32,000 nucleotides of DNA, taken from positions 2,460,001-2,492,000 of the forward strand of contig NZ_CP034549.1 in NCBI RefSeq assembly GCF_003966335.1. Direction: 5' to 3'. Position numbers and translations under genes: made by a program. Below, piece by piece: positions 1 to 29,806 of the stretch. Origin of the DNA: Nonlabens ponticola (lineage in GTDB: Bacteria; Bacteroidota; Bacteroidia; Flavobacteriales; Flavobacteriaceae). A model generated the notes under the pieces. It was not told where the DNA came from. It was given only the letters and a program-made list of their open reading frames with translations, and ran no database searches. Each line of letters begins with the position of its first letter. Position 1 is the stretch's first letter.

Positions 1-653
1 TGGATCTTGCCTGCGGTCGTGGTCGCCACAGCATGTATTTGAACAAGCTGGGTTATGATGTGACTGGTGTAGATTTGAGTGAGAGTAGTATAGCTTTCGC
101 GAAAGCGAGATTAAAAAACATCAAAGAAGGACACTTAGAACTGGACGAGCCTGATCAATCCTCGCTGCAATTGGATCGCATCAAGTTTGCCGTACACAAT
201 ATGACGGTGCCTTATACTGATACCTTTAATGCGGTGTTCAATCTCTTTACCAGTTTTGGATATTTTGACGATCCACAGGATAATCAAAGAACTGTAAGCA
301 GCATCAAGAAGATGTTGAAGCTTGATGGATATGGAGTGATTGATTTTTTCAATTCGCATCACGTGATAGAGCATCTTGTGCCTTATAATGAGAAAGAAGT
401 GCGCGGCATCATGTTCAAGCAATCACGTAGGTTTGAGGATGGTTTTATCTTCAAGGACATAGAGTTTGAAGACGACGGCGAGCGCTATAAGTTTACCGAG
501 CGCGTGAGTGCATTGACTCAGGAGGATTTCTTGAATTACCTCGACACTGCTAGTCTCGAATTGGTACACACTTTTGGCGATTATCAATTAGCTGACTTTG
601 ATCAAGAAACATCACCACGATTGATACTGGTTTTTAAAATCGCTGTGTCATGA
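1..653 (+). CDS. class I SAM-dependent methyltransferase (5' end lies outside the window)
   Basis: The frame stays open back to the window edge. Codons from position 3 read DLACGRGRH, which matches SAM-binding motif I and continues into the listed ORF 33..653. The stop overlaps the next start (ATGA at 650-653). Confidence 0.8.
   Translation, partial: DLACGRGRHSMYLNKLGYDVTGVDLSESSIAFAKARLKNIKEGHLELDEPDQSSLQLDRIKFAVHNMTVPYTDTFNAVFNLFTSFGYFDDPQDNQRTVSSIKKMLKLDGYGVIDFFNSHHVIEHLVPYNEKEVRGIMFKQSRRFEDGFIFKDIEFEDDGERYKFTERVSALTQEDFLNYLDTASLELVHTFGDYQLADFDQETSPRLILVFKIAVS
93..106. repeat. iterated palindrome copy 1 (GCTTTCGCGAAAGC)
   Basis: Perfect 14-mer inside the methyltransferase CDS, read as A-F-A-K-A. 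Confidence 0.95.
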
Positions 654-1318
654 ATTACCTGTTCACATTTCTAGCAGTTGTTGCTGGCGCCTTGCTTGCC
701 TGGCAAGTGCGTGAGATCTCTAGAAAGCGCTTGAAATTGCTACTGGCATTCTCTGGTGCGTTATTGCTAAGTGCGGTCGCTACAGAATTCCTACCTGAAA
801 TCTACACAGAAGGCTCGGTTGATTACGGCATCTACCTTATCGCTGGTGTTTTTATCCAGATCATTCTTGAATTCTTCTCAAAAGGCGCGGAACATGGACA
901 CTTGCACATCGATAAAAATGTAAGTGCTTTTCCTTATGCCCTATTTTTAAGTTTGTGTTTGCATGCTTTTCTTGAAGGAATGCCATTGCAATCCAACGAT
1001 AGCATGGTTTATGCGATTGCCGTTCACAAACTGCCCATCGCCTTTATTTTTACGGCATTCTTGATAGCAAATAAGGCCAGTTTTGTACGCATATTCATTG
1101 TAATGAGCATCTTTGCGGCTATGTCGCCACTAGGAACACTGCTAGCTGCAGAAATAGGCTGGGTGCAAGAAGTCATGTTGCCTATAAAGGCAATAGTTGC
1201 AGGTATCGTCTTGCACGTATCTACCACGCTCATTCTTGAGTCGAGCGATGGTCACAAGTTCAACCTTGCCAAATTGCTTGCGATGATTCTAGGTGCTGCA
1301 CTGGCTTTTTTGATTTAA
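650..1318 (+). CDS. ZIP family metal transporter
   Basis: 222 aa polytopic membrane protein with a His-rich loop (AEHGHLHID) and ZIP-like LHAFLEGMP and HKLPIAF motifs. A 4-nt overlap with the upstream gene suggests translational coupling. Confidence 0.6.
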   Translation: MNYLFTFLAVVAGALLAWQVREISRKRLKLLLAFSGALLLSAVATEFLPEIYTEGSVDYGIYLIAGVFIQIILEFFSKGAEHGHLHIDKNVSAFPYALFLSLCLHAFLEGMPLQSNDSMVYAIAVHKLPIAFIFTAFLIANKASFVRIFIVMSIFAAMSPLGTLLAAEIGWVQEVMLPIKAIVAGIVLHVSTTLILESSDGHKFNLAKLLAMILGAALAFLI

Positions 1319-2071
1319 TCATTTCTTGACAAACACCATGCAATGCTGCCATGGTAGGTGATCAATATTTTCTTTGAGCTTGAATCCGTTGGCGTTGAAC
1401 TCTTTCACGGCTTGAGCCTCGCTCATTTTATGAATTGTCTTTATAGGAATTTGAGGATCCTCGCCGCGATATTCAATGAGATAGATCTCGCCATCTTTCT
1501 TTAAGGCCTTGCGCATAGACGCAATCATCGCTACCGGAAAGCTGAATTCATGATACACATCTACCATCAAAATTTTATCGACAGAGTTGGATGGCAAATT
1601 CACGCTTTTCTCTGACCCTAAGATTAGCTCTACATTTTCAATGTTACTTTCTTCTTTTTTGTAATTCATCGCCGCCAGCATCTCTGGCTGTATATCGACA
1701 GCATAGATCTTACCTTCAGGTACCTGTGGTGCCATTTTAAACACATGATAACCAGATCCAGCGCCTATATCTGCAATGTTATCATCTGGCTGAATGTTCA
1801 TGTTTTCAAGCAGGATGGATGTGTTTTCTTCTTGTTCTCTTTCTGGACGCTCCAGCCATTCCATGCCTTGAAATCCCATGACATGCGCAATCTCACGACC
1901 CATGTACCACTTGCCTATACCATTGATGCTGCCTGATTTATAGACGTAGTCTTGAGAGCTTTCGGTTTGTTCGTCTGACCGAGTAGAGTCAGTAGTTTGG
2001 GTTTGTCCTTTGCAGCTTGTGAGCGAGAAGCTTAAAAATATTAATGAAAAGATGTATTTGAAGTATTTCAT
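1319..2071 (-). CDS. SAM-dependent methyltransferase with lipoprotein signal peptide
   Basis: N-terminal signal ending in LTSC (lipobox-like). Motif I reads IADIGAGSGYHVF, followed by YAVDIQPEML. Confidence 0.75.
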   Translation of the reverse strand: MKYFKYIFSLIFLSFSLTSCKGQTQTTDSTRSDEQTESSQDYVYKSGSINGIGKWYMGREIAHVMGFQGMEWLERPEREQEENTSILLENMNIQPDDNIADIGAGSGYHVFKMAPQVPEGKIYAVDIQPEMLAAMNYKKEESNIENVELILGSEKSVNLPSNSVDKILMVDVYHEFSFPVAMIASMRKALKKDGEIYLIEYRGEDPQIPIKTIHKMSEAQAVKEFNANGFKLKENIDHLPWQHCMVFVKK

Positions 2072-2117
2072 ACTCTGTTGGTCGTGAGAACGATGAATCA
2101 GTTACTTCAAATTTATA

Positions 2118-3119
2118 TTAGGATTGTGATTGACCTGTTTTTTCAAAATACTTATTTACCACACCCAGCTGAATGAGTTGCTCCAATTTTCTATCTTGAA
2201 ACTGCCTCACATGCTCATGAGCGTTTTTGATAAGTTGAGCAGCTTTATCGGCATGATCGATAAAGGATTGTAAGCGTTCATTGAGGTTGGAATAATCGTC
2301 ATTTATCAGAATATAATGATGATCAGGAATCAAGGTGCCTTCCATAAACCAGCTTTCATACTTAGGTTTTGGCATGACGGCAATGGAATTTGAGGACATC
2401 ACCCATTTGAGATTAGTGGCCACATCATTACCTTCAATACATAGGATAAACTTGTAATCCAACTGTTGTTCAATAGTCATTCTAGGTTTTAGAAACTCCT
2501 CAAAGTCGGCGGTTTTATTTACCTTGCCTATATCACACAACGGACTATCAAAATACTGCTGGACAAACTGCACTCGATGTGGTTGTGCCGCTCTCATCTT
2601 GCCACGCCATACCAGCCGGTCCTGTTTCTGTGTAAATGATTTCCTATCGCTGTCGACAAAATTAAAATGCCTAACCGCGTTAAGTTTCATCAAAACGGAG
2701 TTCTCGTGAGGTACTTGAATAGGTCTGGTTTTTACAAAACTAGCTTGATCGGGCACAGTGGTTACATCGCCAGGTTCTACGAGAAACTCGAGATTAGGAT
2801 CAAAAGTTTTTAAATGCTTTTTGAGATCAAAATAATAGACCTTCTGCTTTTTGGGTCGTGAGTAATCTGCAATCGATATCGGATTGATAAGTTCCCGCGG
2901 TTGATCAAGTTTATTATAATAATTGATACGAGCTAGAACTTGTTGTTGCGTGGTTTGATCTAAAGAATCAAAAATAACTTGAAAGGATTTTCTTCTAGAA
3001 AAATCGGGTAGCCATTCCTGAGCGTAAGCACTAATATAATATCGCAACTTACTCTGTTTGTACTTACCTGATAGCCTGTCTAAATCACCCAACATGATTT
3101 TTAAACTTACAATATTCAT
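2118..3119 (-). CDS. glycosyltransferase family 90 (CAP10/KDELC-like) protein
   Basis: The block KFILCIEGNDVATNLKWVMSSNSIAVMP...WFMEGTLIPDHHYILINDDYSNL resembles the GT90 signature region. Confidence 0.6.
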   Translation of the reverse strand: MNIVSLKIMLGDLDRLSGKYKQSKLRYYISAYAQEWLPDFSRRKSFQVIFDSLDQTTQQQVLARINYYNKLDQPRELINPISIADYSRPKKQKVYYFDLKKHLKTFDPNLEFLVEPGDVTTVPDQASFVKTRPIQVPHENSVLMKLNAVRHFNFVDSDRKSFTQKQDRLVWRGKMRAAQPHRVQFVQQYFDSPLCDIGKVNKTADFEEFLKPRMTIEQQLDYKFILCIEGNDVATNLKWVMSSNSIAVMPKPKYESWFMEGTLIPDHHYILINDDYSNLNERLQSFIDHADKAAQLIKNAHEHVRQFQDRKLEQLIQLGVVNKYFEKTGQSQS

Positions 3120-3123
3120 AAAA

Positions 3124-4795: not shown

Positions 4796-6373
4796 TTAGT
4801 CGATAACGATCTTGAAGGAATTCAATCCATCGTTCAGTGCAACGATATAAATACCACTAGACAAAGTATTGAGATCAAAAGAGGATTTCCCTGTTGCATT
4901 GTTTAGTAATAGTTGTCCTTGCAAATTAAAGATAGAAACCTTACTCACACTAATATCGCCAGCGACTATTGTCAAAATATTACTTCTCACGTAGTATTTA
5001 AAATCTTTGGGCTGCTGGACAAAATCATTTGAAAGTGTATTGAAAACCGCACCAAAATCTGGAATGCCATAACCCAACTGATTATCAGGATTATCTGCTT
5101 GAGTGGCACTTTGTCGCACGGCTTCCATCAATTCTTGGGGTGTTCTATCTGGAAAAGCGCCAACCAGCGATGCCATAGCACCAGCAATAACTGGTGAACT
5201 ATAACTTGTACCGTTGCCACTTCGCAAATCATCACTCTCATTAATCAAAATCGTGCTGCTACCTTGCGCCACCACATCTGGTTTTATGCGACCATCAAAT
5301 GTTGGCCCGATGCTAGAGAAATCGGACTTACTTTCATTTGCGGTGACAGACCCTATGGTAAACACACCATCTGCATCTGCTGGTGCGGCGATGTATGGAT
5401 AGCTATTTACTCTACCAAAGTTTCCTGCGCTAGTAACTACCAACAATCCCTTTGCCGCGGCAATTTCTGCACCTCTTGATATGAATGAACTTCCGTTCAT
5501 GTCTTCATAAGTAAGACTCTCGTTATCATTGGCAAACTGTAAATATCCCAACGAGACATTTACTACATCAACACCTAACGAGTCTGCACGCTCTGCAGCC
5601 GCAACCCAATAACTCATTTCCACAGGAGTTTCAGATGTCTCATCTTCTGTACGATATAGATAATAAGACGCATCTGGAGCACTACCTTCAAATTGTGTGT
5701 CGCGACTTGCTCCCATGATGCTCAAGACTCTAGCGCCATGAAAGTTATTACCATAAATACTCTCATCACCATCCACAAAATCATAACCTCCTAAAAGATT
5801 GCGATTGGATCGCATTTGCTCAAAAGCTGTGTTAGTATCCACGCCAGGAAACCCACTATCAGTCACGGCAATAATTACATCAGTACCTATGTGACCAGCA
5901 TCATGCAATTCATCCAGTGCAATCATCTCAATCTGGTTTGTAGCACTACCATAGTCCAGCGGTGGATCAAGATCTTCCTTGAACTGATTTAGCTCTATTT
6001 GACTAGCACTTTTGCTTTGGTCTGCATAATCTACTCGTTCTACAAAATCTAGGTTGTTGAGCGCCTCGATATCCTCAAACTGACCTACCACGTGCACGCA
6101 ATTATTCCACTTGGACTGGGTACGGTAATCAATTCCCGTTTGTTGTTTGATCGTGGCTACATAAGTCTGATTCATAGGCACATCGCGCTCGTCTAGAGTG
6201 ATACCGTGGCGCTGTTTGCGATCTAGCGCACGCTGCGTCAACATGGTGGTTGGGTTGTCTAGGAATGCCTGCTCTTGCGGCTTATCAGTAAAATAAACCC
6301 AAGCATGTAGTTGTTGAGCAGATAGTTCTCCTACCAGCAACAAAGTAGTGACTATAAATATGATCTTTTTCAT
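4796..6373 (-). CDS. secreted S8 (subtilisin-like) serine peptidase with T9SS C-terminal sorting domain
   Basis: Signal peptide present. Catalytic triad contexts are VTDSGF (Asp), HGARV (His) and GNGTSYSSPVIAG (Ser). The C-terminus (...SGIYIVALNDGLNSFKIVID) looks like a Por/T9SS CTD. Confidence 0.85.
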   Translation of the reverse strand: MKKIIFIVTTLLLVGELSAQQLHAWVYFTDKPQEQAFLDNPTTMLTQRALDRKQRHGITLDERDVPMNQTYVATIKQQTGIDYRTQSKWNNCVHVVGQFEDIEALNNLDFVERVDYADQSKSASQIELNQFKEDLDPPLDYGSATNQIEMIALDELHDAGHIGTDVIIAVTDSGFPGVDTNTAFEQMRSNRNLLGGYDFVDGDESIYGNNFHGARVLSIMGASRDTQFEGSAPDASYYLYRTEDETSETPVEMSYWVAAAERADSLGVDVVNVSLGYLQFANDNESLTYEDMNGSSFISRGAEIAAAKGLLVVTSAGNFGRVNSYPYIAAPADADGVFTIGSVTANESKSDFSSIGPTFDGRIKPDVVAQGSSTILINESDDLRSGNGTSYSSPVIAGAMASLVGAFPDRTPQELMEAVRQSATQADNPDNQLGYGIPDFGAVFNTLSNDFVQQPKDFKYYVRSNILTIVAGDISVSKVSIFNLQGQLLLNNATGKSSFDLNTLSSGIYIVALNDGLNSFKIVID

Positions 6374-6382: not shown

Positions 6383-7561
6383 TTAAGCAATAACACCCGA
6401 ACCTAGGCATTCACCATCTTGATACCATGCGGCAAATTGACCAGAGCTTATCGCGCTTTGCGCATTATCAAAGATCACATAGAGACCTTCTTCTCGCTGG
6501 TGTAAGGTAGCCGGCTCTAATGTTTGTCGATAACGTATGCGCGCCATAACATCCATGGTCTCACCTACCATAATCGATAAATCTGGTCGTATCCAGTGTA
6601 CCTCATCTTGTGCAATAAACAGTCCACGACGGTACAACCCTGCATGATCTTTACCTTGACCTACGTATATAGTATTGGTTTCCACATCAGTCTCTATGAC
6701 AAATAAAGGCTCAACCGTACCACCTACGGCAAGACCACGACGCTGCCCACGTGTAAAATAGTGCGCACCTTGATGTTGTCCTTTTACTTGTCCATCTGTT
6801 TTTTCATAAGTACGCTTTCGCGAAAGCGTAACAACCTCATCATCACTACTACCAGTCATACTCTTGTGCATGCTAACGGATACGGGAACCTCAACGATAT
6901 CACCAGTTTTAGGTTTCAATTGTTGTTGTAGAAAGTCTGGCAAGCGCACCTTGCCAATAAAACAAAGGCCTTGACTATCTTTTTTACCAGCGGTAATCAA
7001 ATCTTGGGAAGCTGCAATCTCACGAACTTCAGATTTTTGAAGATGACCTATAGGGAAAAGTGTTTTGGCAAGTTGGTCCTGTGATACCTGACATAAAAAA
7101 TAGCTTTGATCCTTGTTAGAATCGGCGCCACTGATCAATCGGTGAACTTGTTGATCGTCAATGGTGATGGTATCTTTTTGACAGTAATGTCCAGTTGCAA
7201 CAAAGTCTGCACCTAGATTCATGGCTATATCCATAAACACGTCAAACTTGATCTCACGATTGCAAAGTACATCAGGGTTGGGCGTACGACCGCGTGCATA
7301 CTCATCAAACATGTAATTGACTATTCGATCCTTGTACTGCTCGCTTAAATCGACTGTCTGGAATGGTATGCCCAACTTGTCTGCGACGAGCATGGCATCA
7401 TTAGAATCTTCTAGCCATGGACACTCGTCACTTATGGTCACGCTGTCATCGTGCCAATTCTTCATAAACAGACCTATCACTTCATGACCTTGCTCGATAA
7501 GCAAATGTGCGGCTACACTGCTGTCAACACCACCTGAAAGTCCTACTACTACCTTTGCCAT
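6383..7561 (-). CDS. mnmA: tRNA 2-thiouridine(34) synthase MnmA
   Basis: PP-loop GLSGGVDSS plus full-length MnmA-like sequence. I take the ATG at 7561 ([11 protein letters not shown]) as the start, not the TTG at 7579 used by the ORF track. Confidence 0.9.
6811..6830. repeat. iterated palindrome copy 2 (TACGCTTTCGCGAAAGCGTA)
   Basis: Perfect 20-bp palindrome inside the mnmA CDS, read on the minus strand as T-L-S-R-K-R-T. Confidence 0.95.
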
Positions 7562-7730
7562 GCTGCAAAAATAGCGCAACTATAAATCTTTGTGCTGACG
7601 AGTATATTTTATTTAACTATGAGAAGTTTCTTGGTTTCTATGACCAGTACAACTTCGTCACAAAATCGCCTAGTTACGGCAATAGATGCGCCATAGATTC
7701 GTTATTTTGCCAGTCCTAAATACCTGTTGA

Positions 7731-8687
7731 ATGAAGATGCGTTTTTTATACCTATTGTTTGCTTTCTCCCTGATTATAAGTTGTACCGATGAGGACGATA
7801 ATAACAATGTTATCAATGGACCCAGCGCACTTGATTTTGTCAGCGAGAGTCCAGATCACACAATACTGTTGCAAGCGCTGGAACGTACTCGTCTTGACGA
7901 GTCACTTGAGACCAGTAATAACTTAACGATTTTTGCGCCCAATGATAATGCTTTCCGCCAATTTCTTGCGGCCAATAATTTTGGTAGTGTCAACTCTATA
8001 CCAGAGGATCTCCTGACGCTCGTTCTTCAATATCATATACAGAATGAGGTTAAAACAACCGATCAATTAGGATCTCAGTATTTTAAAACGCTAGCTACTG
8101 TTGATAATGACCAACTAGACGTGTTTGTGTCAAAGGATGAAGAAGACAACTTGCGACTCAACAACGAGGCAGATGTGATTCTTGCAGATGAAATAGTAAG
8201 TAACGGTGTGATACATGTAATCGACGATGTACTTGATATACCTAGTGTGGTCACTTTGATCGCGGCAAATCCCGATTTTGACTTGCTAGAAGAAAGCTTG
8301 AGACAAGAAGGTCTTGCCGTAACCCTAGATGATCTAGAAGATGCTAGTGCTCCATTCACCGTTTTTGCTCCTAGCGACGCAGGTTTTCAAGCATTTATTG
8401 ACGAGGATGAAGAAGATGGATTTGAAGACAGTGATGATGTACTAGAGCTGGATAATCTTGATGATATCTTGTTATATCATGTTCTAGGAGATAACGCTTT
8501 AAGGCTTGAAGACTTTGAGGATGGATCGACCATTGGTCCATTAGGCGATGGTACTTTTCTCCTGGCGACGTCCAGCGGTTTTACCATTGCTGATGAGAAT
8601 GATCGCATCACAACGATTGTGACTACAAACATTACTGCCTTTAATGGCGTGATCCATTCGCTAGACAACATATTGCTACCAGAGTAA
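7731..8687 (+). CDS. fasciclin (FAS1) domain lipoprotein, two FAS1 repeats
   Basis: Lipoprotein-type signal (LIISC). The FAS1 motifs occur twice: TIFAPNDNAF...NGVIHVIDDVL and TVFAPSDAGF...NGVIHSLDNILLP. Confidence 0.85.
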   Translation: MKMRFLYLLFAFSLIISCTDEDDNNNVINGPSALDFVSESPDHTILLQALERTRLDESLETSNNLTIFAPNDNAFRQFLAANNFGSVNSIPEDLLTLVLQYHIQNEVKTTDQLGSQYFKTLATVDNDQLDVFVSKDEEDNLRLNNEADVILADEIVSNGVIHVIDDVLDIPSVVTLIAANPDFDLLEESLRQEGLAVTLDDLEDASAPFTVFAPSDAGFQAFIDEDEEDGFEDSDDVLELDNLDDILLYHVLGDNALRLEDFEDGSTIGPLGDGTFLLATSSGFTIADENDRITTIVTTNITAFNGVIHSLDNILLPE

Positions 8688-9620: not shown

Positions 9621-10178
9621 TTAGAGCTTTTCAAGTTTAGCGCCATCCCATGAATAGGTCATTACAGGCTCTCTAACAGCTGGCTGTCCAAATTGACGAG
9701 ACTTCACAATAATGTCTATGAGGCTTTTGCCGTTTTTGCTTTCGCGAAAGCGTAACTCATGCACATAATTAATCCCATCATAATATTCATTTCTCAATAA
9801 TGGCAACTCTACAATACTGTCTTGAGTCATAAATAAATATCGATCAATTTCAAAACGATCGTTAGCCATAAATTCCGAACGCAATAGCACGATTTCTTTG
9901 ACATTAGGTAGAGTTTCATCCAGCTTATAAACATTGGCAGCCTGCATGCCAGCCACTTCATCTTTTTCAAGAATTATTGCCTTAACCGGAGTTCCTGTTG
10001 AGTCAGATAGAACGGATCTTATCACAGCATGATGCTGCAAGGACTTTCTAGCCCTTTCCATGTCCTCCTTACTAGATATGGATAGTGTGTAATAATCAAT
10101 AGGAATTAATCCAGCGGCTGTTTGAGCCATTGCATGAACACCTAGTAACATTGTGGATAAGAAAAATAGCTTTTTCAT
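9621..10178 (-). CDS. hypothetical secreted protein
   Basis: The ATG at 10178 gives MKKLFFLSTMLLGVHAMAQ, a signal peptide. I recognise no family. It contains one copy of the iterated palindrome. Confidence 0.6.
   Translation of the reverse strand: MKKLFFLSTMLLGVHAMAQTAAGLIPIDYYTLSISSKEDMERARKSLQHHAVIRSVLSDSTGTPVKAIILEKDEVAGMQAANVYKLDETLPNVKEIVLLRSEFMANDRFEIDRYLFMTQDSIVELPLLRNEYYDGINYVHELRFRESKNGKSLIDIIVKSRQFGQPAVREPVMTYSWDGAKLEKL
9738..9751. repeat. iterated palindrome copy 3
   Basis: Perfect 14-mer inside hypothetical CDS 9621..10178, read on the minus strand as R-F-R-E-S. The right flank is GTAAC. Confidence 0.95.
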
Positions 10179-10241
10179 AAGTAATAATAACGATGACAAA
10201 GTACAGCATATTTTGATAAACCATATTTTTACATCAAAATA

Positions 10242-10976: not shown

Positions 10977-11330
10977 ATGAAAATACTTTTACTCTCTTTT
11001 CTTCTTAGCTTTTACAGCGTGGCAAGTTATGCAGCGACTGTAGAACCTGTTGTGATTACTACCAGCGTTGATACACAAAAGCCTGAAAGCATGCGCCTAA
11101 TCAATAATCCTGTCAAGGATGGCACGCTTAAAATCCAGATACTTAACGCGCAAAGCCTGACTATGAATGTTGTGATCATCAACAGTTTAGGCAAGGAAGT
11201 ATATCGAGCGCAGCGCAGCCTCAATAAACAGGCTCAATTGTTTGATGTTTCTACGCTAGCATCAGGCATTTATTTCTTGAGAGTGAACACAGAGTCTTCA
11301 AACTTTGTGAAGAAACTCATTGTACAGTAA
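10977..11330 (+). CDS. small secreted protein that is almost only a T9SS C-terminal sorting domain
   Basis: Signal peptide MKILLLSFLLSFYSVASYA, then about 20 residues, then a CTD-like block (LINNPVKDGTLKIQ...NSLGKEVY...ASGIYFLRVNTESSNFVKKLIVQ). Confidence 0.65.
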   Translation: MKILLLSFLLSFYSVASYAATVEPVVITTSVDTQKPESMRLINNPVKDGTLKIQILNAQSLTMNVVIINSLGKEVYRAQRSLNKQAQLFDVSTLASGIYFLRVNTESSNFVKKLIVQ

Positions 11331-11392: not shown

Positions 11393-11455
11393 AAAATAAC
11401 CTCTGACGATAATCGTGAATGTTGTTTTATTACCTAACAGATTAAATCTATTAAG

Positions 11456-11831: not shown

Positions 11832-11859
11832 AAAACCGCTCTATCGAGCGGTTTTTTTT
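11832..11859 (+). terminator. rho-independent terminator of rplS
   Basis: Hairpin CCGCTC-tatc-GAGCGG flanked by an A-run and followed by T8. Confidence 0.8.
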
Positions 11860-11882
11860 GTTGGGTAGATGGTGATAATTAT

Positions 11883-11896
11883 GCTTTCGCGAAAGC
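11883..11896. repeat. iterated palindrome copy 4
   Basis: Perfect 14-mer in the spacer just after the rplS terminator. The outer arms GTGAT...ATCAC can extend the hairpin. Confidence 0.95.
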
Positions 11897-11998
11897 TAAC
11901 ATCACAAAATTCCAACTAACAATCAAAATGAGCAGTACAAAGCGCTACCAAAGTGCTAAGGCTACCTAAAAATGGCTGCTAAAACCTCGTTCAAGCAT

Positions 11999-14803: not shown

Positions 14804-14827
14804 ATTACGCTTTCGCGAAAGCATAAT
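14804..14827. repeat. iterated palindrome copy 5
   Basis: Core at 14809-14822. It forms a 24-bp palindrome with one mismatched pair (ATTACGCTTTCGCGAAAGCATAAT) in the spacer between convergent genes. Confidence 0.95.
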
Positions 14828-18902: not shown

Positions 18903-20054
18903 ATGAGCAAGCTTACTAGCCCTAATTATGTGTGCGTTCATGCCGGTGATCTCAAGGACACTACATTTGGCGGCGCCACTGCTCCTATTTATACATCGAC
19001 TACATATGACTATCGCGGTGAGGGCACAAATTTATATCCGCGCTATTTTAACACGCCTAATCAAGTAGCGCTGGCTCAAAAAATGGCAGCACTGGAACAG
19101 ACCGAGGCTGCTCTAATCTTTGGTAGCGGTATGGCGGCGATAAGCGCCGTTTTTATGGCGTTTCTCAAACAAGGAGATCACATCATCCTACAACGCGCAA
19201 TCTATGGTGGCACGGCACATTTTGCAGCAGCAGAATTTGATCGCACGGGTATAAGCTACACCATGATTGAGCATGTCGATGAAGAAAGTTTACAGACCGC
19301 ACTCAAAGAAAACACTAGGATGATCTACATCGAGACACCTAGCAATCCCTTGTTAGAAGTTGTGGATATTGAGGTTGTTTCAGCTTTCGCGAAAGCTAAC
19401 TCCCTAAAAACTGCCATCGACAACACATTTGCCTCACCTATCAACCAGAATCCTGCAAACTATGGTATTGATATCATTATACATAGTGCGACTAAATACC
19501 TAGGCGGTCACAGCGATATTTGTGCTGGTACGGTTTCTGCCTCACAGGTGGACATTGACAGATTGTGGAAAACTGCCAAGAATTATGGCGGTAGCCTGAG
19601 CGATGTTACCGTTCACTTATTAGAACGTAGCATAAAAACACTAGGATTAAGAGTCAAGCAGCAGTCTGAAACCGCTCACAAACTAGCCGTTGCACTAGAG
19701 CTCAATCAAGATGTTGAATCTGTAAATTACCCAGGTCTTGAATCTCACGCACAGCATGAGATTGCCAAAAAGCAAATGCGTTATTACGGCGGTATGATGT
19801 CGTTTGTACTAAGCTCAAAAATCGACGACGACCAGTTTTTGAATCACTTGAAGGTCATAAAACCAGCGCTAAGTCTTGCTGGTGTAGAGTCTACAATCTT
19901 ATCACCACGTTTGACCTCTCATAGCTTATTGCCAGCAAAAGAAAGAAGAGAACAAGGTATCGATGATCGTTTGCTACGATTTTCAACTGGAATAGAAGAA
20001 CTTGAAGTACTTCTAGAAGACATCATGCAAGCTCTTGAAAACAGCAGAAAATAA
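18903..20054 (+). CDS. PLP-dependent trans-sulfuration family enzyme (cystathionine gamma-synthase/lyase or beta-lyase type)
   Basis: Cys/Met-metabolism PLP family features: SGMAAI, VDNTFASP and the PLP-lysine context HSATKYLGGHSD. Confidence 0.85.
   Translation: MSKLTSPNYVCVHAGDLKDTTFGGATAPIYTSTTYDYRGEGTNLYPRYFNTPNQVALAQKMAALEQTEAALIFGSGMAAISAVFMAFLKQGDHIILQRAIYGGTAHFAAAEFDRTGISYTMIEHVDEESLQTALKENTRMIYIETPSNPLLEVVDIEVVSAFAKANSLKTAIDNTFASPINQNPANYGIDIIIHSATKYLGGHSDICAGTVSASQVDIDRLWKTAKNYGGSLSDVTVHLLERSIKTLGLRVKQQSETAHKLAVALELNQDVESVNYPGLESHAQHEIAKKQMRYYGGMMSFVLSSKIDDDQFLNHLKVIKPALSLAGVESTILSPRLTSHSLLPAKERREQGIDDRLLRFSTGIEELEVLLEDIMQALENSRK
19382..19397. repeat. iterated palindrome copy 6 (AGCTTTCGCGAAAGCT)
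   Basis: Perfect 16-bp palindrome inside the trans-sulfuration enzyme CDS, read as S-A-F-A-K-A-N. Confidence 0.95.
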
Positions 20055-20887: not shown

Positions 20888-20962
20888 GGTGGTTGTAGCT
20901 CAGCTGGTTAGAGCGCTGGTTTGTGGTGCCGGAAGTCGCGGGTTCGAATCCCGTCTTCCACC
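20888..20962 (+). tRNA. tRNA-His (anticodon GTG) with encoded G-1
   Basis: Manual cloverleaf: D arm GCTC/GAGC, anticodon loop TTGTGGT (GTG at 20923-20925), T arm GCGGG-TTCGAAT-CCCGT, G-1 opposite C73. The acceptor stem GTGGTTG/CTTCCAC has two U-U mismatches. CCA is not encoded. Confidence 0.8.
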
Positions 20963-21284
20963 CTAAAAAGGTCTTAGAGAAATCTAGGGCCTTTTTTAAT
21001 TTTTGGCCTCTTATATATCGATACATTAAGGGATGAGAAGTTTATGCTGAGCGCAGTCGAAGTAAATCCCGTCTTCCACCCTAAAAAGGTCTTAGAGAAA
21101 TCTAGGGCCTTTTTTAATTTTTGGCCTCTTATATATCGATACATTAAGGGATGAGAAGTTTATGCTGAGCGCAGTCGAAGTAAATCCCGTCTTCCACCCT
21201 AAAAAGGTCTTAGAGAAATCTAGGGCCTTTTTTAATTTGGTGAATTTTTGCTGCATGAAAAAAGGGATGAAAAGTTTATGCTGA
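20947..21284 (+). repeat. 118-bp tandem repeat array that begins inside the tRNA-His T-loop (2 identical units plus 1 diverged unit)
   Basis: Units start at 20947, 21065 and 21183. Units 1 and 2 are identical over 118 bp. Unit 3 shares the first 56 bp (tRNA 3' end plus terminator) and a 22-bp block AGGGATGA(G/A)AAGTTTATGCTGA. Confidence 0.9.
20970..20997 (+). terminator. rho-independent terminator after tRNA-His
   Basis: Stem GGTCTTAGA / TCTAGGGCC (with G-U pairs), loop GAAA, followed by T6. It is repeated in each tandem unit. Confidence 0.7.
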
Positions 21285-21781
21285 CCTTACAGAACGACCT
21301 TTTTCTTTTTGAATTTGGATCCAACGATTAATGATAATCATATCGCTCGTTTCTTTTCCAACTAAACTTTATGAAGTCAAGTTTAGCCACTTGCATTTCC
21401 ATCAGATAAAATGTCTTTACCCTACTAAATCACTTCCATTTTTATCAGCCTAAAATTGTAATATGACGTTTTGAGCACGAAAACGTTGTAGTAGCACCGT
21501 CAAAAAGTTCATTTTATTGATGGTTTTATGTAGTAATTCTCCTACCAAATGTTAAAATATCACGAATTTCTCTTTTAGTTTTAATAACAAAATTTACTCT
21601 TAAATTCTACTGATAGCAGTATATCAAAGCCGTTTGTTAACTTCGATTTTAAACATTTGAACAACTTATTGTTAAATTAATATCAAAAACGGCTTGCATG
21701 TCTAGTGAGAAAACCCATACATTTAGACTTCTGCAGAACTAAACCATTTAACTTAATCATTAACCCCTAAACAAACCCAAA

Positions 21782-22700: not shown

Positions 22701-23222
22701 TTAGTAATGTATGAGGCTATGGACCGGACTATGTTTCAATCGCTTTCTGCCAGCTAGAAAATCAAGTTCAATTAGGAAACTATAACCTACCACGGTGCCT
22801 TTACATTTTTCAATCAGTTGACTAGTAGCTAATGCTGTACCGCCAGTAGCAAGCACGTCATCATGTATGAGGACGCGAGCATCTTTAGGAATCATGTGCT
22901 GCTGTATCTCTAGAGTATCCTGACCATATTCTAGATCATACTGTTCCTGCACCACAGCTCCAGGTAATTTACCAGGCTTGCGTACCATGACAAATGAAGC
23001 ATCAAGCGCATCAGCCACCAGCGTACCAAAAAGGAAACCTCGCGATTCCATACCCACGACTACATCTATTTCCTTGTCCTTATATTTTGTTGCTAGCAGT
23101 GAGGTTATTGTCTTTCTCGCTTTCGCGGAAGCTAACAAAGGGGAAATATCCTTAAACACGATTCCCACTTGAGGAAAATCAGGTACATCCTGCACTAATC
23201 CTTTTAAATCTTCTATTTTCAT
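22701..23222 (-). CDS. apt: adenine phosphoribosyltransferase
   Basis: DFPQVGIVFKDISPLL and the PRPP-binding motif VLIHDDVLATGGTA. Confidence 0.92.
   Translation of the reverse strand: MKIEDLKGLVQDVPDFPQVGIVFKDISPLLASAKARKTITSLLATKYKDKEIDVVVGMESRGFLFGTLVADALDASFVMVRKPGKLPGAVVQEQYDLEYGQDTLEIQQHMIPKDARVLIHDDVLATGGTALATSQLIEKCKGTVVGYSFLIELDFLAGRKRLKHSPVHSLIHY
23119..23132. repeat. iterated palindrome copy 7 (one mismatch: GCTTTCGCGGAAGC)
   Basis: Lies inside the apt CDS and is read on the minus strand as A-S-A-K-A. The single A-to-G change is at 23128. Confidence 0.8.
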
Positions 23223-25211: not shown

Positions 25212-25285
25212 GGCCTCGTGGCGCAACTGAATAGCGCACTTGATTACGGCTCAAGAGGTTACAGGTTTGAATCCTGTCGAGGTCA
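25212..25285 (+). tRNA. tRNA-Arg (anticodon ACG)
   Basis: Manual cloverleaf: acceptor GGCCTCG/CGAGGTC (one G-U pair), D arm GCGC/GCGC, anticodon stem CTTGA/TCAAG with loop TTACGGC, T arm ACAGG-TTTGAAT-CCTGT, discriminator A. Confidence 0.9.
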
Positions 25286-25296
25286 CGACACTTAAG

Positions 25297-25327
25297 AAAC
25301 CACGCTCATAAAAATGAGCGTGGTTTT
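25297..25327 (+). terminator. rho-independent terminator after tRNA-Arg
   Basis: Stem CCACGCTCAT / ATGAGCGTGG extended by an AAA/TTT pairing, loop AAAA, followed by TTTT. Confidence 0.75.
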
Positions 25328-25561: not shown

Positions 25562-25577
25562 ATCCCGTCGAGGTCAC
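25562..25577 (+). repeat. degenerate 16-nt copy of the tRNA-Arg 3' end
   Basis: ATCCCGTCGAGGTCAC compared with ATCCTGTCGAGGTCAC shows one mismatch. Confidence 0.75.
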
Positions 25578-25866
25578 TACACTCAGGAAAGGATGCTCAA
25601 ATAAACGTTAATTGTAAACTCAAGAGAGTATTCAGTTTTGGCTTGAATTATGACCGTGAGGGCCATAATAATCAATGTACTGATACCAAGCGTTGGCTGA
25701 TATATATTTGATGCTTAATTACATAAGCTATTCAAGAAATCAAATTATAAATCTGAAATACGCTTTTGCTAATTGATTTCTTCAAGCCTACAATTATAAT
25801 CCAGCAATTCATTTCAAACCTTTTTGATTAATTCACGTCTTATAGGAAATTCTAAATGTTGGCCTC

Positions 25867-28089: not shown

Positions 28090-28213
28090 TGTTTGTCATA
28101 GACCTTCATTTTAAAGCAAGAATTTCGCAATCCTTCAAGATAGAATAGTATTTCTGGTAGATCCTAAACTAAAACTTTCTATGCTCAACTAATCTTCTCT
28201 TTATCTAGGTCAG

Positions 28214-28221
28214 TATCTTTG
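28214..28221 (+). promoter_or_regulatory. -7 promoter box (TATCTTTG) upstream of the Crp/Fnr-family gene
   Basis: Matches TAnnTTTG and lies 27 nt upstream of the ATG at 28248. Confidence 0.4.
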
Positions 28222-28247
28222 ATTATTATGAGCTCATTAAATAACTA

Positions 28248-28898: not shown

Positions 28899-28921
28899 CA
28901 AGGGTTACATACATTCCGATG

Positions 28922-28946
28922 ATTGGCATCTAATTTTGATGCCAAT
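28922..28946. promoter_or_regulatory. perfect inverted repeat ATTGGCATC-N7-GATGCCAAT (candidate operator or RNA hairpin)
   Basis: Two 9-bp arms with a 7-nt spacer, located between the regulator stop (28898) and the TauE ATG (28959). No T-run follows. Confidence 0.4.
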
Positions 28947-28958
28947 TCAAACAGGAAT

Positions 28959-29759
28959 ATGGAAATCATAGAAATTCTAGGCTACTCAGGTGCGCTGCTC
29001 ATAGGTCTCGTTCTCGGATTAATAGGTGGTGGTGGTTCTATCTTAACCGTTCCCATTCTGGTCTATGCACTAGCCATCAATCCCGTTACGGCAACCGCCT
29101 ATTCCCTATTTGTCGTGGGTTCTACATCTCTTGTAGGTGCAGTTAAGAACATGATTAAAGGCATGGTAGATTTCAAAACCGCCATCATTTTTGCCATTCC
29201 AGCCTTTATCGCTGTCTATTTAACCAGGGCATTCTTGATCCCAATTATTCCAGAAATTCTTTTCTCGATCGACGGATTTGAAGTCACAAAGAACCTAGCG
29301 ATCATGCTATTCTTTGCCGTTATTATGCTGCTGGCATCCATCTCTATGGTTAGGAATAACAGAAAGGAAAATGAGGAAGAAACCGAAATCAAATACAACT
29401 ATCCGCTAATCATTATTGAAGGTCTGGTCGTGGGAACCATCACAGGAATTGTAGGTGCAGGCGGCGGTTTTCTCATTATTCCCGCATTGGTTTTGCTGGC
29501 AAATCTACCTATGAAAAAAGCGGTTGCCACCTCACTTTTTATTATAGCGATCAAGTCACTTATTGGATTTGTGGGCGACGTTCAAAATCTAGCAATAGAC
29601 TGGAATTTCCTTTTGGTTTTTACGGGACTATCTGTAATCGGGATTTTTATCGGCGTCTGGCTCAACAAATTTATAGACGGTAAGAAACTCAAGAAAGCGT
29701 TTGGTTGGTTTGTACTCGTGATGGGTATTTACATCATCTATAAGGAACTAGCAGGATGA
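28959..29759 (+). CDS. sulfite exporter TauE/SafE family membrane protein
   Basis: The ATG at 28959 gives MEIIEILGYSGALLIGLVLGLIGGGGSILTVP. The internal repeat GIVGAGGGFLIIPAL is typical of TauE/DUF81. The track's TTG start at 28923 lies inside the inverted repeat. Confidence 0.8.
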   Translation: MEIIEILGYSGALLIGLVLGLIGGGGSILTVPILVYALAINPVTATAYSLFVVGSTSLVGAVKNMIKGMVDFKTAIIFAIPAFIAVYLTRAFLIPIIPEILFSIDGFEVTKNLAIMLFFAVIMLLASISMVRNNRKENEEETEIKYNYPLIIIEGLVVGTITGIVGAGGGFLIIPALVLLANLPMKKAVATSLFIIAIKSLIGFVGDVQNLAIDWNFLLVFTGLSVIGIFIGVWLNKFIDGKKLKKAFGWFVLVMGIYIIYKELAG

Positions 29760-29786
29760 TTTGAATGTTACACAGTTTGTTATAAG

Positions 29787-29806
29787 TACGCTTTCGCGAA
29801 AGCGTA
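29787..29806. repeat. iterated palindrome copy 8 (TACGCTTTCGCGAAAGCGTA)
   Basis: Perfect 20-bp palindrome in the spacer between the TauE gene and the MBL-rhodanese gene. Confidence 0.95.

What the first reader, a model, noticed from the sequence alone, without database searches (positions are those of the whole stretch)
93..29806. Over-represented perfect palindrome GCTTTCGCGAAAGC in spacers and in coding sequence in all three frames
The 14-mer occurs perfectly at 93, 6814, 9738, 11883, 14809, 19383 and 29790, and with one mismatch at 23119. Spacing between copies is 2.1-6.7 kb. There are 4^14 (about 2.7e8) possible 14-mers, so a 32-kb window should contain far fewer than one copy of any given one. 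Three copies are intergenic and five are inside CDSs. The coding copies are read in different frames: AFAKA/ASAKA in the methyltransferase, trans-sulfuration enzyme and apt; LSRKR in mnmA; RFRES in the hypothetical protein. That pattern argues against a shared protein motif and points to selection or spread at the DNA or RNA level. Several copies extend to 16-24 bp, with consensus (T)TACGCTTTCGCGAAAGCGTAA and a recurrent asymmetric TAAC flank. The behaviour resembles cyanobacterial HIP1, neisserial and Haemophilus uptake sequences, or dense binding-site arrays. The TTTC-NN-GAAA architecture also recalls ParB parS and Noc NBS palindromes. The core contains TCGCGA and CGCG. The function cannot be determined from sequence alone.
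Basis: partly seen in the sequence, partly recalled or inferred. Interest (0 to 1): 0.75.

Follow-up and report, generated by a model that had tools for sequence, protein, structure and literature searches.

The report
Iterated 14-bp palindrome in marine flavobacteria
Nonlabens and Dokdonia chromosomes carry the perfect palindrome GCTTTCGCGAAAGC about every 3-5 kb at evenly spaced positions conserved between species, which looks like a flavobacterial counterpart of cyanobacterial HIP1 or of DNA-uptake/Chi-type "self" tags, though its reader protein and function are unknown.

Summary

The window is Nonlabens ponticola. The 14-mer is abundant in every Nonlabens and Dokdonia locus examined (25 perfect and 7 one-off copies in 117 kb). 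It is absent from about 400 kb of other Flavobacteriaceae and from two virulent Nonlabens phages.

- **Origin:** copies arise by point substitution, not insertion.
- **Conservation:** copies sit at orthologous positions in species with 70-80% protein identity, while intergenic flanks have diverged.
- **Spacing:** copies are over-dispersed, with almost no pairs closer than 0.8 kb.
- **Location:** copies occur in all three reading frames and are 2.7-fold enriched between genes.
- **Dyad requirement:** half-sites are not enriched, so the whole dyad is the unit.

New finding: each strand is G/T-rich and C-poor for about 25 nt 5' of the core, with T every third base. This holds regardless of coding frame.

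Mobile-element, peptide, terminator and parS/Noc readings are rejected. The best reading is a selectively maintained, HIP1/USS/Chi-like self-DNA tag read as a dyad, probably in DNA uptake or recombination (confidence about 0.4). A nucleoid-architecture site is the main rival. I found no published description.

The parts
93..106 (.). Perfect 14-bp core inside the class-I methyltransferase ORF (33-653, +), read as AFAKA. The left arm 63-92 is G/T-rich.
6814..6827 (.). Perfect core, extended to the 20-bp palindrome TAC..GTA, inside mnmA (6383-7579, -) and read as LSRKR. It lies in a roughly 30-aa lineage-specific variable linker. The right arm 6828-6857 has no G for 26 nt.
   Evidence: the orthologous copy is in Nonlabens sp. 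Hel1_33_55 (L121:714)
9738..9751 (.). Perfect core in the hypothetical ORF 9621-10199 (-), read as RFRES. It is not at an orthologous position in L121.
11883..11896 (.). Perfect core in the spacer downstream of rplS (11456-11809) and about 30 nt downstream of that gene's own intrinsic terminator. The left arm 11853-11882 has no C and the right arm 11897-11926 has no G.
   Evidence: 14/14 invariant in three Nonlabens species, while the surrounding spacer has diverged and carries indels
14809..14822 (.). Perfect core between the convergent genes DUF2306 (14371-14784, +) and ORF 14847-16100 (-).
   Evidence: orthologous copies are L122:6217 (perfect), L121:8944 and L124:3404 (one mismatch each)
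19383..19396 (.). Perfect core in the Cys/Met-metabolism PLP enzyme (18903-20054, +), read as AFAKA.
   Evidence: identical DNA 14-mer in all five Nonlabens-clade loci (70-80% aa identity). Outgroup genera have AKLAKQ/AKIAKK with no gap, so the copy arose by substitution.
23119..23132 (.). One-mismatch copy GCTTTCGCGGAAGC (A10>G) in apt (22701-23222, -), read as ASAKA.
   Evidence: the same variant sits at the orthologous site in L121:19176 and L123:12537, so the copy is ancient and held by the protein's Ser codon
29790..29803 (.). Perfect core, extended to the 20-bp palindrome TAC..GTA, in the spacer downstream of the TauE/SafE gene (28923-29759, +).
11853..11926 (.). Example of the full composite element: a roughly 30-nt G/T-rich, C-poor 5' arm, then the core, then a roughly 30-nt A/C-rich, G-poor 3' arm. 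Read on the other strand, the pattern is the same.
   Evidence: statistics over 164-169 sites; the arms do not add significant folding energy

Best explanation
SHOWN. GCTTTCGCGAAAGC is a lineage-specific, highly iterated palindrome of the Nonlabens/Dokdonia chromosomes.
- It occurs about once per 3-5 kb, which extrapolates to roughly 600 copies in the 2.9-Mb N. ponticola genome.
- Copies are created by point substitutions at nearly matching 'proto-sites'.
- Copies are kept perfect at the same positions for as long as it takes proteins to diverge to 70-80% identity.
- Copies avoid each other at distances below about 1.5 kb.
- They are tolerated in all reading frames and favoured in spacers.
- They act as a whole dyad, because half-sites are not enriched.
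- Each copy is embedded in a roughly 40-70-bp dyad-symmetric context: semi-conserved T-(A/C)-C|G-(T/G)-A, T at -4/-7/-10/-13, and G/T-rich, C-poor strands running 5'->3' toward the core from both sides.

INFERRED. The core is bound as duplex DNA by a clade-specific homodimeric protein. It serves as a 'self' tag in DNA uptake and/or RecA-dependent recombination and repair. This is the role now emerging for cyanobacterial HIP1 and long known for USS/DUS and Chi.

On this reading, processing that starts or stops at the core leaves 3'-ended single strands that are G/T-rich in triplet register. That is the kind of sequence on which RecA filaments are most stable. This would hold whichever side the processing comes from, which could explain both the palindrome and the mirror-image arms.

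The central CGCG is probably a host methylation site, as the centre of HIP1 is.
For: - **Abundance and clade restriction:**. There are 25 perfect and 7 one-off copies in 116.6 kb of loci not chosen for the motif, and 4 perfect plus 1 one-off in 22.9 kb of D. pacifica. There are none in about 380 kb of other Flavobacteriaceae or in 22.9 kb of Patiriisocius.
- **Maintenance rather than decay:** 169 perfect, 20 one-off and 16 two-off copies, against 0.05 one-off expected by chance. Note that about 91 of the 169 perfect copies are guaranteed by how the 8-kb blocks were selected.
- **Orthologous conservation with diverged flanks:**
- **Birth by substitution:** the PLP enzyme, and GcvP, where GTTTTTGCAAAAGC in D. 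pacifica corresponds to the perfect site in other Dokdonia.
- **Over-dispersion:** the coefficient of variation of spacing is 0.53 against 0.94 for random placement (P about 5e-5). In 91 independent 8-kb blocks there is 1 interval below 800 bp against 15 expected.
- **Whole-dyad unit:** half-sites have observed/expected ratios of 0.4-0.9. TTCGCGAA occurs 0 times against 4.5 expected outside full sites.
- **Arms:** C falls from 0.19 to 0.07 and G+T rises. This is seen at all three codon positions, in all frames, on sense and antisense strands, and in spacers. T is phased every 3 nt (intergenic 0.56 vs 0.40, P=1e-7). The arms are no more complementary to each other than their base composition predicts.
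- **Absent from foreign DNA:** virulent Nonlabens phages P12024S and P12024L have 0 copies against about 7.6 expected. A phage contig with structural genes carries 3 copies in 12 kb.
- **Centre probably methylated or restricted:** phage CGCG observed/expected is 0.21, alongside GGCC at 0 and CCGG at 0.06.
- **Literature:** HIP1 is under selection and non-randomly spaced (PMC5861425). Methylated HIP1 raises transformation more than 100-fold 'reminiscent of Chi' (10.1101/2024.09.10.611283). HIP1 abundance correlates with DNA-uptake machinery (10.64898/2026.06.24.733823). Riemerella columbina (Flavobacteriales) is naturally competent and prefers its own DNA (PMC7965970). RecA filaments are most stable on TGG-type triplet repeats and least stable on CCA (PMC3763553).
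Against: - No reader protein, competence phenotype or methylation data exist for Nonlabens or Dokdonia, so the functional step is inference by analogy.
- Known uptake sequences and Chi sites are short and asymmetric. A 14-20-bp perfect palindrome is more typical of a dimeric duplex-binding protein with any function.
- The in-phase triplets in the arms are T-N-N (TTT, TGA, TAA, TTG), not specifically TGG.
- The G/T-rich 'islands' around E. coli Chi were later attributed to codon usage (references 22-23 of PMC3763553). That explanation fails here, because the skew is frame-independent.
- One-off copies are rarer relative to perfect ones than in USS/DUS genomes.
- The arm skew could instead be a mutational footprint.
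- Spacing statistics use partly orthologous loci. One search is the independent test.
Confidence: 0.4

Rival explanations
1. Nucleoid-architecture site. A clade-specific nucleoid-associated or ParB/Noc-like protein binds the dyad. Regularly spaced copies would act as loop anchors, supercoil-domain barriers or loading sites.
For: - The dyad symmetry and the whole-dyad requirement.
- Even spacing with exclusion below 1.5 kb.
- Positional conservation.
- Intergenic enrichment of 2.7-fold.
- Absence from virulent phages.
- This is the model Xu et al. favoured for HIP1 (PMC5861425).
Against: - The model gives no reason for strand-polar G/T arms with 3-nt phasing.
- The density is 10-100 times that of known specific architectural sites such as parS, NBS, SBS and matS (own knowledge).
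- Half-site identity to parS and NBS is only 3/8 and 3/7.
Confidence: 0.25
2. Footprint or target of a dyad-symmetric DNA-cleaving or modifying enzyme. The copies could be strong sites for a type II topoisomerase. Alternatively they could be sites of a CGCG-centred methyltransferase/nuclease pair. In the second case, biased repair would convert near-matches into perfect sites and repeated nick/resection cycles would deaminate the exposed 5' arms (C>T, A>G).
For: - A 4-bp CGCG centre fits a 4-nt staggered cut, and the most tolerant position (5/10) flanks it.
- Near-cognate cores are depleted (TTCGCGA 9 vs 22), as expected if they are converted or selected against.
- The arm skew keeps G+C constant and equals amino-to-keto (A,C to G,T) changes on the strand that 5'->3' resection from the core would leave single-stranded.
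- Phages avoid CGCG.
Against: - The skew is nearly as strong at first and second codon positions as at third positions. A purely mutational cause is therefore unlikely unless sites sit only in unconstrained segments.
- Over-dispersion and conservation are not predicted by a simple by-product model.
- TCGCGA and CGCG themselves are not enriched outside the sites.
Confidence: 0.12
3. RNA- or ssDNA-level hairpin, acting as an mRNA stabiliser, a bidirectional terminator or a Rho-loading signal (the 3' arm is C-rich and G-poor in either transcription direction).
For: - The core folds as a 5-9-bp stem with a CGCG loop, at -7.3 kcal/mol for the 22-mer as DNA.
- Three window copies lie just downstream of genes.
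- The 3' arms are C>G, like Rho-utilisation (rut) sites.
Against: - 67% of copies are inside genes and roughly uniformly placed along them.
- Intergenic copies occur in all gene arrangements, including 11 divergent ones.
- rplS has its own terminator upstream of the copy.
- No T-tract follows the hairpin.
- Six of ten position-5/10 variants break the pair and none is compensated.
- Rfam finds nothing at the sites.
Confidence: 0.05
4. Miniature mobile element of the REP/RAYT, MITE or Rickettsia-palindromic-element type, recently spread by insertion.
For: The motif is a repeated palindrome present in both genes and spacers. Palindromic insertions that preserve the reading frame are known in Rickettsia (own knowledge).
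Against: - Alignments show no insertion at the PLP, apt or GcvP sites.
- Copies are orthologous across species, and the apt copy shares the same mismatch in three species.
- The flanks of different copies are unrelated apart from base composition.
- No transposase is associated with the copies.
Confidence: 0.03

Closest known systems
HIP1 (GCGATCGC), the highly iterated palindrome of cyanobacteria
   Same: - It is a perfect palindrome hyper-abundant in one lineage.
- It lies in genes in all frames and in spacers.
- It is conserved between genomes more than its surroundings, and it is non-randomly spaced.
- Its centre is a (probable) methylation site.
- Its function has long been unknown and is now being linked to transformation and Chi-like recombination.
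   Different: - The core is 14 bp (20 bp with the extension) rather than 8 bp.
- Density is about 1 per 3-5 kb rather than up to 1 per gene.
- The phylum is different (Bacteroidota).
- The strand-symmetric G/T arms and short-range site exclusion have not been reported for HIP1.
- Methylation has not been shown here.
DNA uptake sequences (Haemophilus USS, Neisseria DUS)
   Same: - They are clade-specific 'dialects' at high density and evenly spaced.
- They occur in tolerant coding positions and in spacers.
- They are stable at homologous positions and absent from unrelated DNA.
- The USS also has an extended flanking context.
   Different: - USS and DUS are asymmetric 9-12-mers, often paired as terminators, with many one-off copies.
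- Here the unit is one perfect dyad that is not a terminator, and one-off copies are few.
- Competence of Nonlabens and Dokdonia is unknown.
Chi recombination hotspots
   Same: The density is similar (E. coli has about 1 per 4.5 kb). Chi also occurs in genes and spacers, marks self against phage DNA, and is associated with G/T-rich sequence preferred by RecA.
   Different: Chi is 5-8 nt, asymmetric, read as single-stranded DNA and co-oriented with replication. Here the full palindrome is required. Polarity is seen only as the species-specific TAAC flank.
REP/BIME elements of enterobacteria
   Same: These are hundreds of palindromic copies per genome that bind gyrase, IHF and Pol I and have been proposed as domain organisers.
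   Different: REPs are imperfect, 20-40 nt, strictly extragenic, clustered, and mobilised by RAYT transposases. None of this applies here.
parS / Noc-binding site (NBS) palindromes
   Same: They are 14-16-bp dyads with T-rich and A-rich half-sites (TTTC..GAAA).
   Different: The sequence differs in most positions. parS and NBS number about 10-70 per genome, with an ori-centred or ter-excluded layout. Here there are hundreds of copies, found all along the chromosome.

Membership tests
HIP1-type highly iterated palindrome | Perfect palindrome orders of magnitude above compositional expectation | tested here: met
   There are 8 copies against 0.13 expected in the window. Across clade loci there are 169 perfect copies against 0.001 expected in 769 kb.
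HIP1-type highly iterated palindrome | Present in coding sequence in all frames and in non-coding DNA, so not a peptide motif | tested here: met
   113 copies are in CDS (frames 67/22/24) and 56 are intergenic. The encoded peptides are AFAKA, xFRES and LSRK.
HIP1-type highly iterated palindrome | Sites conserved between genomes beyond neighbouring sequence (selection) | tested here: met
HIP1-type highly iterated palindrome | Sequence GCGATCGC or a close variant, in cyanobacteria | tested here: not met
   The sequence is different and the organisms are Flavobacteriaceae.
HIP1-type highly iterated palindrome | Core methylated by dedicated (orphan) methyltransferases | not testable with these tools
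   The only evidence is indirect: Nonlabens phages avoid CGCG (O/E 0.21).
DNA uptake sequence (USS/DUS) | Preferential uptake of DNA carrying the motif by a naturally competent host | not testable with these tools
   Competence and preference for own DNA are known in Riemerella (PMC7965970), but not in Nonlabens or Dokdonia.
DNA uptake sequence (USS/DUS) | High density, even spacing, clade-specific, lacking in foreign DNA | tested here: met
DNA uptake sequence (USS/DUS) | Asymmetric 9-12-mer, frequently as inverted pairs forming terminators | tested here: not met
   The motif is a single perfect dyad. It occurs in all intergenic arrangements and in CDS, and it is separate from the rplS terminator.
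Chi site | Short asymmetric motif that is active and over-represented on its own | tested here: not met
   Half-sites are not enriched outside full sites (O/E 0.4-0.9).
Chi site | Orientation bias with respect to replication | tested here: inconclusive
   The core has no orientation. The TAAC flank is on the + side in 6 of 6 window copies that carry it. The ori/ter position is unknown, and N. ponticola sequence outside the window could not be fetched.
Chi site | Modulates RecBCD/AddAB | not testable with these tools
   -
ParB parS / Noc NBS | Match to the consensus TGTTNCACGTGAAACA or ATTTCCCGGGAAAT | tested here: not met
   Centre-aligned half-sites share 3/8 positions (parS) and 3/7 positions (NBS), by inspection of the sequences.
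ParB parS / Noc NBS | Few to tens of sites with an ori-proximal or ter-excluded layout | tested here: not met
   The density is 1 per 3-5 kb. Hits lie at 0.88, 1.38, 2.15 and 2.82 Mb of the 3.37-Mb Dokdonia sp. R86516 chromosome.
REP/RAYT, MITE, Rickettsia palindromic element | Copies are insertions relative to empty orthologous sites | tested here: not met
   Protein alignments are gap-free at the sites. The proto-site is seen in D. pacifica and Patiriisocius.
REP/RAYT, MITE, Rickettsia palindromic element | Extragenic location (REP) or shared flanking element sequence (MITE/RPE) | tested here: not met
   67% of copies are in CDS. Flanks share only base composition.
Intrinsic terminator | G+C-rich hairpin followed by a T-tract at gene ends | tested here: not met
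   The hairpin is weak and is followed by A/C-rich sequence. It is found in CDS and in divergent spacers.

The most novel reading that the evidence does not exclude
The element could be the first sequence-specific self-DNA tag (uptake and/or Chi-like recombination signal) in Bacteroidota, with RecA-friendly G/T arms on both strands.

It could also be one member of a wider, undescribed class of CGCG-centred 14-20-bp iterated palindromes read by a conserved protein family. A marine Gemmatimonadota MAG carries GACGTTCCCGCGGGAACGTC at a similar density, in genes and spacers. Its half-site matches the flavobacterial one at 6 of 10 positions, and 3 further positions are pyrimidine-for-pyrimidine changes.
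Probability: 0.2. Interest if true: 0.85.

Novelty: new variant of a known kind. Interest (0 to 1): 0.72.

Why it matters
Iterated 'self' motifs (USS/DUS, Chi, HIP1) are among the few genome-wide signals that link sequence to DNA uptake, repair and chromosome biology. None has been described in Bacteroidota.

This element has practical advantages for study:
- It is long and perfectly defined, which makes pull-down, DAP-seq and synthetic-DNA tests simple.
- It occurs in cultivable marine model genera. Dokdonia sp. MED134 is a proteorhodopsin model organism.
- It carries a strand-polar flanking signature that makes specific, testable predictions about single-strand intermediates.

If it enhances transformation or recombination, it would help build genetic tools for marine flavobacteria. 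It would also provide an independent system for resolving the 30-year HIP1 question.

It is also a practical marker. Its presence or absence separates host DNA from virulent phage DNA and could help with binning or host assignment.

Tried and rejected
- **Literature:** the 14-mer is not printed in any paper of the library. TTTCGCGAAA gives only unrelated hits. Searches for Nonlabens or Dokdonia with 'palindrome', and for HIP with flavobacteria, gave nothing relevant.
- **Extended hairpin:** arm-to-arm complementarity is no higher than composition predicts, and folding z-scores are modest. Rejected.
- **Peptide motif:** rejected on frames and intergenic copies.
- **Insertion or mobile element:** rejected.
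- **Terminator:** rejected.
- **Position within genes:** only a slight 5' excess, probably from over-extended ORF starts.
- **Other 'dialects':** no iterated palindrome was found in about 20 loci of other Flavobacteriaceae.
- **Skew versus site presence:** I compared arm skew in orthologues with and without a site. There were too few pairs and the alignments were uncertain, so the result is inconclusive.
- **TGG-specific triplets in the arms:** not found.
- **More N. ponticola sequence:** three look-ups failed because the genome is not in the gene-position index. As a result, no whole-genome count or ori/ter analysis was possible.
- **Symmetric double mutants** (which would indicate hairpin or dimer co-variation): none among 16 two-off copies in the flavobacteria. 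Most of these simply lack the outer GC on one side.
- **HNH endonuclease coincidence:** HNH endonuclease genes contain a copy both in phage contig L213 and in the Gemmatimonadota locus. I judge this coincidental given the site density.

Full report
**1. Observation**

A mismatch-tolerant search finds perfect GCTTTCGCGAAAGC at 93, 6814, 9738, 11883, 14809, 19383 and 29790. It also finds GCTTTCGCGGAAGC at 23119 and nothing with two mismatches. Shuffles expect 0.13 matches. The words contained in the motif are also the most repeated 10-, 12- and 14-mers in the window.

- AFAKA in a methyltransferase and in a Cys/Met PLP enzyme.
- ASAKA in apt.
- LSRKR in mnmA.
- RFRES in a hypothetical ORF.

These frames were checked.

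**2. Organism and distribution**

An Rfam L19-Flavobacteria leader and a 100% protein match identify the window as Nonlabens ponticola.

- About 91 blocks come from Dokdonia, Nonlabens or unnamed Flavobacteriaceae MAGs. They often hold 2-3 copies per 8 kb and lie at widely separated chromosome coordinates.
- The rest are single hits scattered over unrelated phyla, as chance predicts.

In loci fetched through proteins, and therefore not selected for the motif, density is as follows:

| Source | Length | Perfect | One mismatch |
|---|---|---|---|
| Window (N. ponticola) | 32 kb | 7 | 1 |
| Nonlabens sp. Hel1_33_55 (L121) | 21 kb | 5 | 2 |
| N. dokdonensis (L122) | 21 kb | 7 | 1 |
| CP050461 (L124) | 21 kb | 5 | 2 |
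| N. ulvanivorans (L123) | 21 kb | 1 | 1 |
| D. pacifica (L328) | 23 kb | 4 | 1 |

About 380 kb from some 20 other Flavobacteriaceae contigs has no perfect or one-off copy and no other iterated palindrome. Patiriisocius marinus, the nearest named genus to Dokdonia by GcvP identity, also has none in 22.9 kb.

Nonlabens and Dokdonia do not appear among each other's 120 best hits for the two proteins searched. The distribution may therefore be patchy rather than that of one simple clade. Single copies with the typical flank occur in Altibacter, Leeuwenhoekiella and Flavobacterium sp. LPB0248.

**3. Not a mobile element, peptide or terminator**

At the PLP-enzyme site the alignment has no gap. All Nonlabens have SAFAKA, where Salinimicrobium, Gramella, Polaribacter and Gillisia have AKLAKQ, AEISKK, AALAKE and SKIAKK. 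The apt site is likewise gap-free against solved homologues.

In GcvP the perfect site exists in only part of Dokdonia. D. pacifica has GTTTTTGCAAAAGC (three mismatches, AVFAKA) and Patiriisocius has CTCTTTGCTGAAGC. The site was therefore built by substitutions, one of them non-synonymous, from a near-match.

Of 169 clade sites, 113 lie in ORFs (frames 67:22:24) and 56 lie in spacers. That is a 2.7-fold intergenic enrichment (P=2e-12). The spacers are of every gene arrangement: 20 ++, 14 --, 11 divergent and 7 convergent.

Position along genes is nearly uniform. The rplS copy lies downstream of a separate, conserved intrinsic terminator. The hairpin itself is weak.

**4. Conservation**

The identical DNA 14-mer sits at the orthologous PLP position in all five Nonlabens-clade loci (70-80% protein identity). 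The apt copy carries the same A10>G mismatch in three species. The mnmA, rplS-downstream and DUF2306-downstream copies are also shared.

In the rplS spacer the 14 columns are invariant, while the rest of the spacer has substitutions and a 22-24-nt indel. A similar pattern is seen downstream of DUF2306. Independent block pairs confirm the result, for example N. xylanidelens against a Nonlabens MAG and D. ponticola against a Dokdonia MAG at 47% local identity. A probable cross-genus case is D. pacifica L058:6091 against L010:6188.

There is also turnover. Several sites have no counterpart in the other species. One is decayed in N. ulvanivorans: GCTTTTGCGAAAAC, opposite a perfect site in CP050461.

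Across clade loci there are 169 perfect, 20 one-off and 16 two-off copies, with 0.05 one-off expected by chance. About 91 of the perfect copies are guaranteed by how the blocks were chosen, so the unbiased ratio is nearer 4:1.
- Half of the one-off changes fall at position 5/10, next to the central CGCG.
- Most two-off copies simply lack the outer GC on one side.

**5. Spacing**

Copies repel each other. In the unselected loci the coefficient of variation of the intervals is 0.53, against 0.94 for random placement (P about 5e-5). No interval is shorter than 933 bp. These loci are partly orthologous to one another, so they are not fully independent.

The independent test uses 91 blocks from about 45 assemblies. 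It gives 1 interval under 800 bp against 15.3 expected, and 8 under 1500 bp against 26.6 expected. None of 20,000 simulations was as extreme.

**6. The unit is the whole dyad**

After masking the sites, half-site words are not enriched (O/E 0.4-0.9). The inner palindrome is if anything avoided: TTCGCGA occurs 9 times against 22 expected, and TTCGCGAA 0 times against 4.5. TCGCGA and CGCG are at expectation.

**7. A new feature: strand-symmetric arms**

I pooled the 5' flank of each strand (328 arms).
- C falls from 0.19 to 0.07-0.10 between -30 and -4.
- G rises to 0.24-0.28 and T to 0.42.
- A falls to 0.23, and G+C is unchanged.

The mirror image (A/C-rich, G-poor) lies 3' of the core. The skew is present in spacers, in each of the three frames, and on both sense and antisense arms. 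It affects all three codon positions and shifts amino-acid usage, with V, D, E and G favoured upstream and T, Q, P and K downstream.

Position-specific preferences extend the motif to T-(A/C)-C|G-(T/G)-A and to T at -4, -7, -10 and -13. This phasing holds in spacers (0.56 vs 0.40, P=1e-7) and in frames 0 and 2. The two arms of a copy are no more complementary than their base composition predicts, so this is not a longer hairpin.

Phage-borne copies show the same style of flank.

The polarity means that the G/T-rich strand always runs 5'->3' toward the core. That is the strand left single-stranded by 5'->3' resection from the core. It is also the strand preserved 5' of a Chi-like stop. G/T-rich triplet repeats give the most stable RecA filaments and CCA the least (PMC3763553). 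However, the in-phase triplets here are T-N-N rather than TGG. A deamination footprint (C>T, A>G) on the exposed strand would give the same composition.

**8. Phages**

Most of the 118 viral-contig hits are single chance matches. A few low-G+C contigs carry several copies. One of them, L213, encodes portal, protease, major head, adaptor and tail proteins and has 3 copies in 12 kb.

The two isolated virulent Nonlabens phages, P12024S and P12024L (35.7 kb), have none. Their best match has 3 mismatches, against about 7.6 copies expected at host density (P about 5e-4). These phages also nearly lack GGCC (0 vs 35), CCGG (2 vs 34) and CGCG (9 vs 44). That is a restriction-avoidance pattern. It implies that the host restricts and methylates CGCG, which is the centre of the palindrome.

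**9. Mechanism**

Shown:
- The signal acts at the DNA level.
- The whole dyad is the unit.
- It is selectively maintained or driven.
- It is clade-restricted.
- It is evenly spaced.
- It is specific to host DNA.

Inferred, at about 0.4 confidence: it is a recognition site for a dimeric protein that tags self DNA for uptake and/or recombination.

The analogy rests on HIP1 and on competence in a related order.
- HIP1 is under selection and non-randomly spaced (PMC5861425).
- Methylated HIP1 raises transformation more than 100-fold and is described as Chi-like.
- HIP1 abundance co-varies with uptake machinery.
- Natural competence with preference for own DNA has been reported in Flavobacteriales (PMC7965970).

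The main rival is a nucleoid-architecture site (0.25). It explains the spacing and conservation but not the polar arms. A topoisomerase, nuclease or methylation-repair footprint (0.12) explains the CGCG centre, the depletion of near-cognate cores and the skew, but not the strength of the skew at non-synonymous positions. RNA-level and mobile-element readings are weak (0.05 and 0.03).

**10. Comparison and novelty**

The element behaves like HIP1 and like USS/DUS or Chi, but it fails the defining sequence and geometry features of each (see the membership table). It is not parS/NBS-like in sequence or in copy number.

No paper in the searchable library mentions the motif. I rate it a new variant of a known kind. 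It is an iterated palindrome in a new phylum. It has an unusually long perfect core, short-range site exclusion, and a strand-polar flanking signature not described for the known examples.

**11. Limits**

- No complete genome could be scanned.
- The genome-wide copy number (about 600) is therefore an extrapolation, and ori/ter relations are unknown.
- The ORF caller is crude.
- Some 'orthologous' block pairs at 30-50% identity may be paralogues.

Noticed in passing
L280:334-351, 2410-2427, 5199-5216, 7739-7756; L323:6394, 7636, 8471, 11266, 13033, 13806, 19822, 19967: A marine Gemmatimonadota MAG (related to Ca. Palauibacter, G+C 0.64) carries its own iterated palindrome, (GAC)GTTCCCGCGGGAAC(GTC). 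In 21 kb there are 4 perfect copies, 3 one-off copies and one symmetric two-off copy (GTTTCCGCGGAAAC), in both genes and spacers, and all four copies in the 10-kb contig L280 are 2.1-2.8 kb apart. Its half-site matches the flavobacterial one at 6 of 10 positions, and 3 further positions are Y-for-Y changes. No G/T arm skew is evident. A 67%-identical relative (L324) has none.
   Followed up: partly
window 6828-6833, 9752-9757, 11897-11900, 19397-19400, 23133-23136, 29804-29809: The (G)TAAC flank occurs in 6 of 8 window copies and always on the + side. It is almost absent in other genomes, and the orthologous sites there read GAAC, GAGC or GTGC. It looks like a species-specific, polar extension of the motif. 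Uniform orientation over 30 kb (P about 0.03) hints at a link to replication direction, but this could not be tested beyond the window.
   Followed up: partly
L325 and L326 (Nonlabens phages P12024S/L, whole genomes): Both virulent phages almost completely lack GGCC (0 vs 35 expected), CCGG (2 vs 34) and CGCG (9 vs 44). The host loci show milder avoidance (O/E 0.68, 0.58 and 0.79). This suggests three 4-bp restriction-modification specificities in Nonlabens. Each phage also encodes a DNA methyltransferase.
   Followed up: partly
window 20947-21300: The 3' end of tRNA-His (20889-20963) starts a tandem array of 118-nt units: two identical units and a third at 60% identity. Each unit begins with AATCCCGTCTTCCACCCT. 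This looks like repeated att-site remnants of integrative elements.
   Followed up: partly
window 25271-25314 and 25562-25605: The 3' end of tRNA-Arg (25212-25286) and the sequence just downstream are duplicated 291 nt further on at 80% identity. This is another probable integration scar.
   Followed up: no
clade loci, outside full sites: Inner parts of the palindrome are under-represented when they are not part of a full site: TTCGCGA occurs 9 times against 22 expected, and TTCGCGAA 0 times against 4.5. TCGCGA and CGCG are at expectation. Near-cognate sites thus seem to be either completed or purged.
   Followed up: partly
window 6383-7579 (mnmA), residues about 230-260: MnmA has a roughly 30-residue linker with no counterpart in the solved S. 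pneumoniae or E. coli enzymes. The linker is highly variable between Nonlabens species except for the LSRKR encoded by the palindrome.
   Followed up: partly
L213:191-204, 6705-6718, 11185-11198: A phage or prophage contig with portal, protease, major capsid, adaptor and tail genes carries three perfect copies about 5.5 kb apart. One copy lies inside an HNH endonuclease gene. Related IMG/VR contigs share some of these sites.
   Followed up: partly
L124 (CP050461) vs L110, L071: The unnamed complete genome CP050461 is 98-100% identical to a contig labelled 'uncultured Aquimarina sp. 3-198_2', and it carries the Nonlabens-type palindrome. The Aquimarina labels of L110 and L071 are probably wrong.
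   Followed up: no
window 11397-11424: An Rfam L19-Flavobacteria ribosomal-protein leader lies upstream of rplS (45.6 bits). It is what first placed the window in Flavobacteriia.
   Followed up: yes
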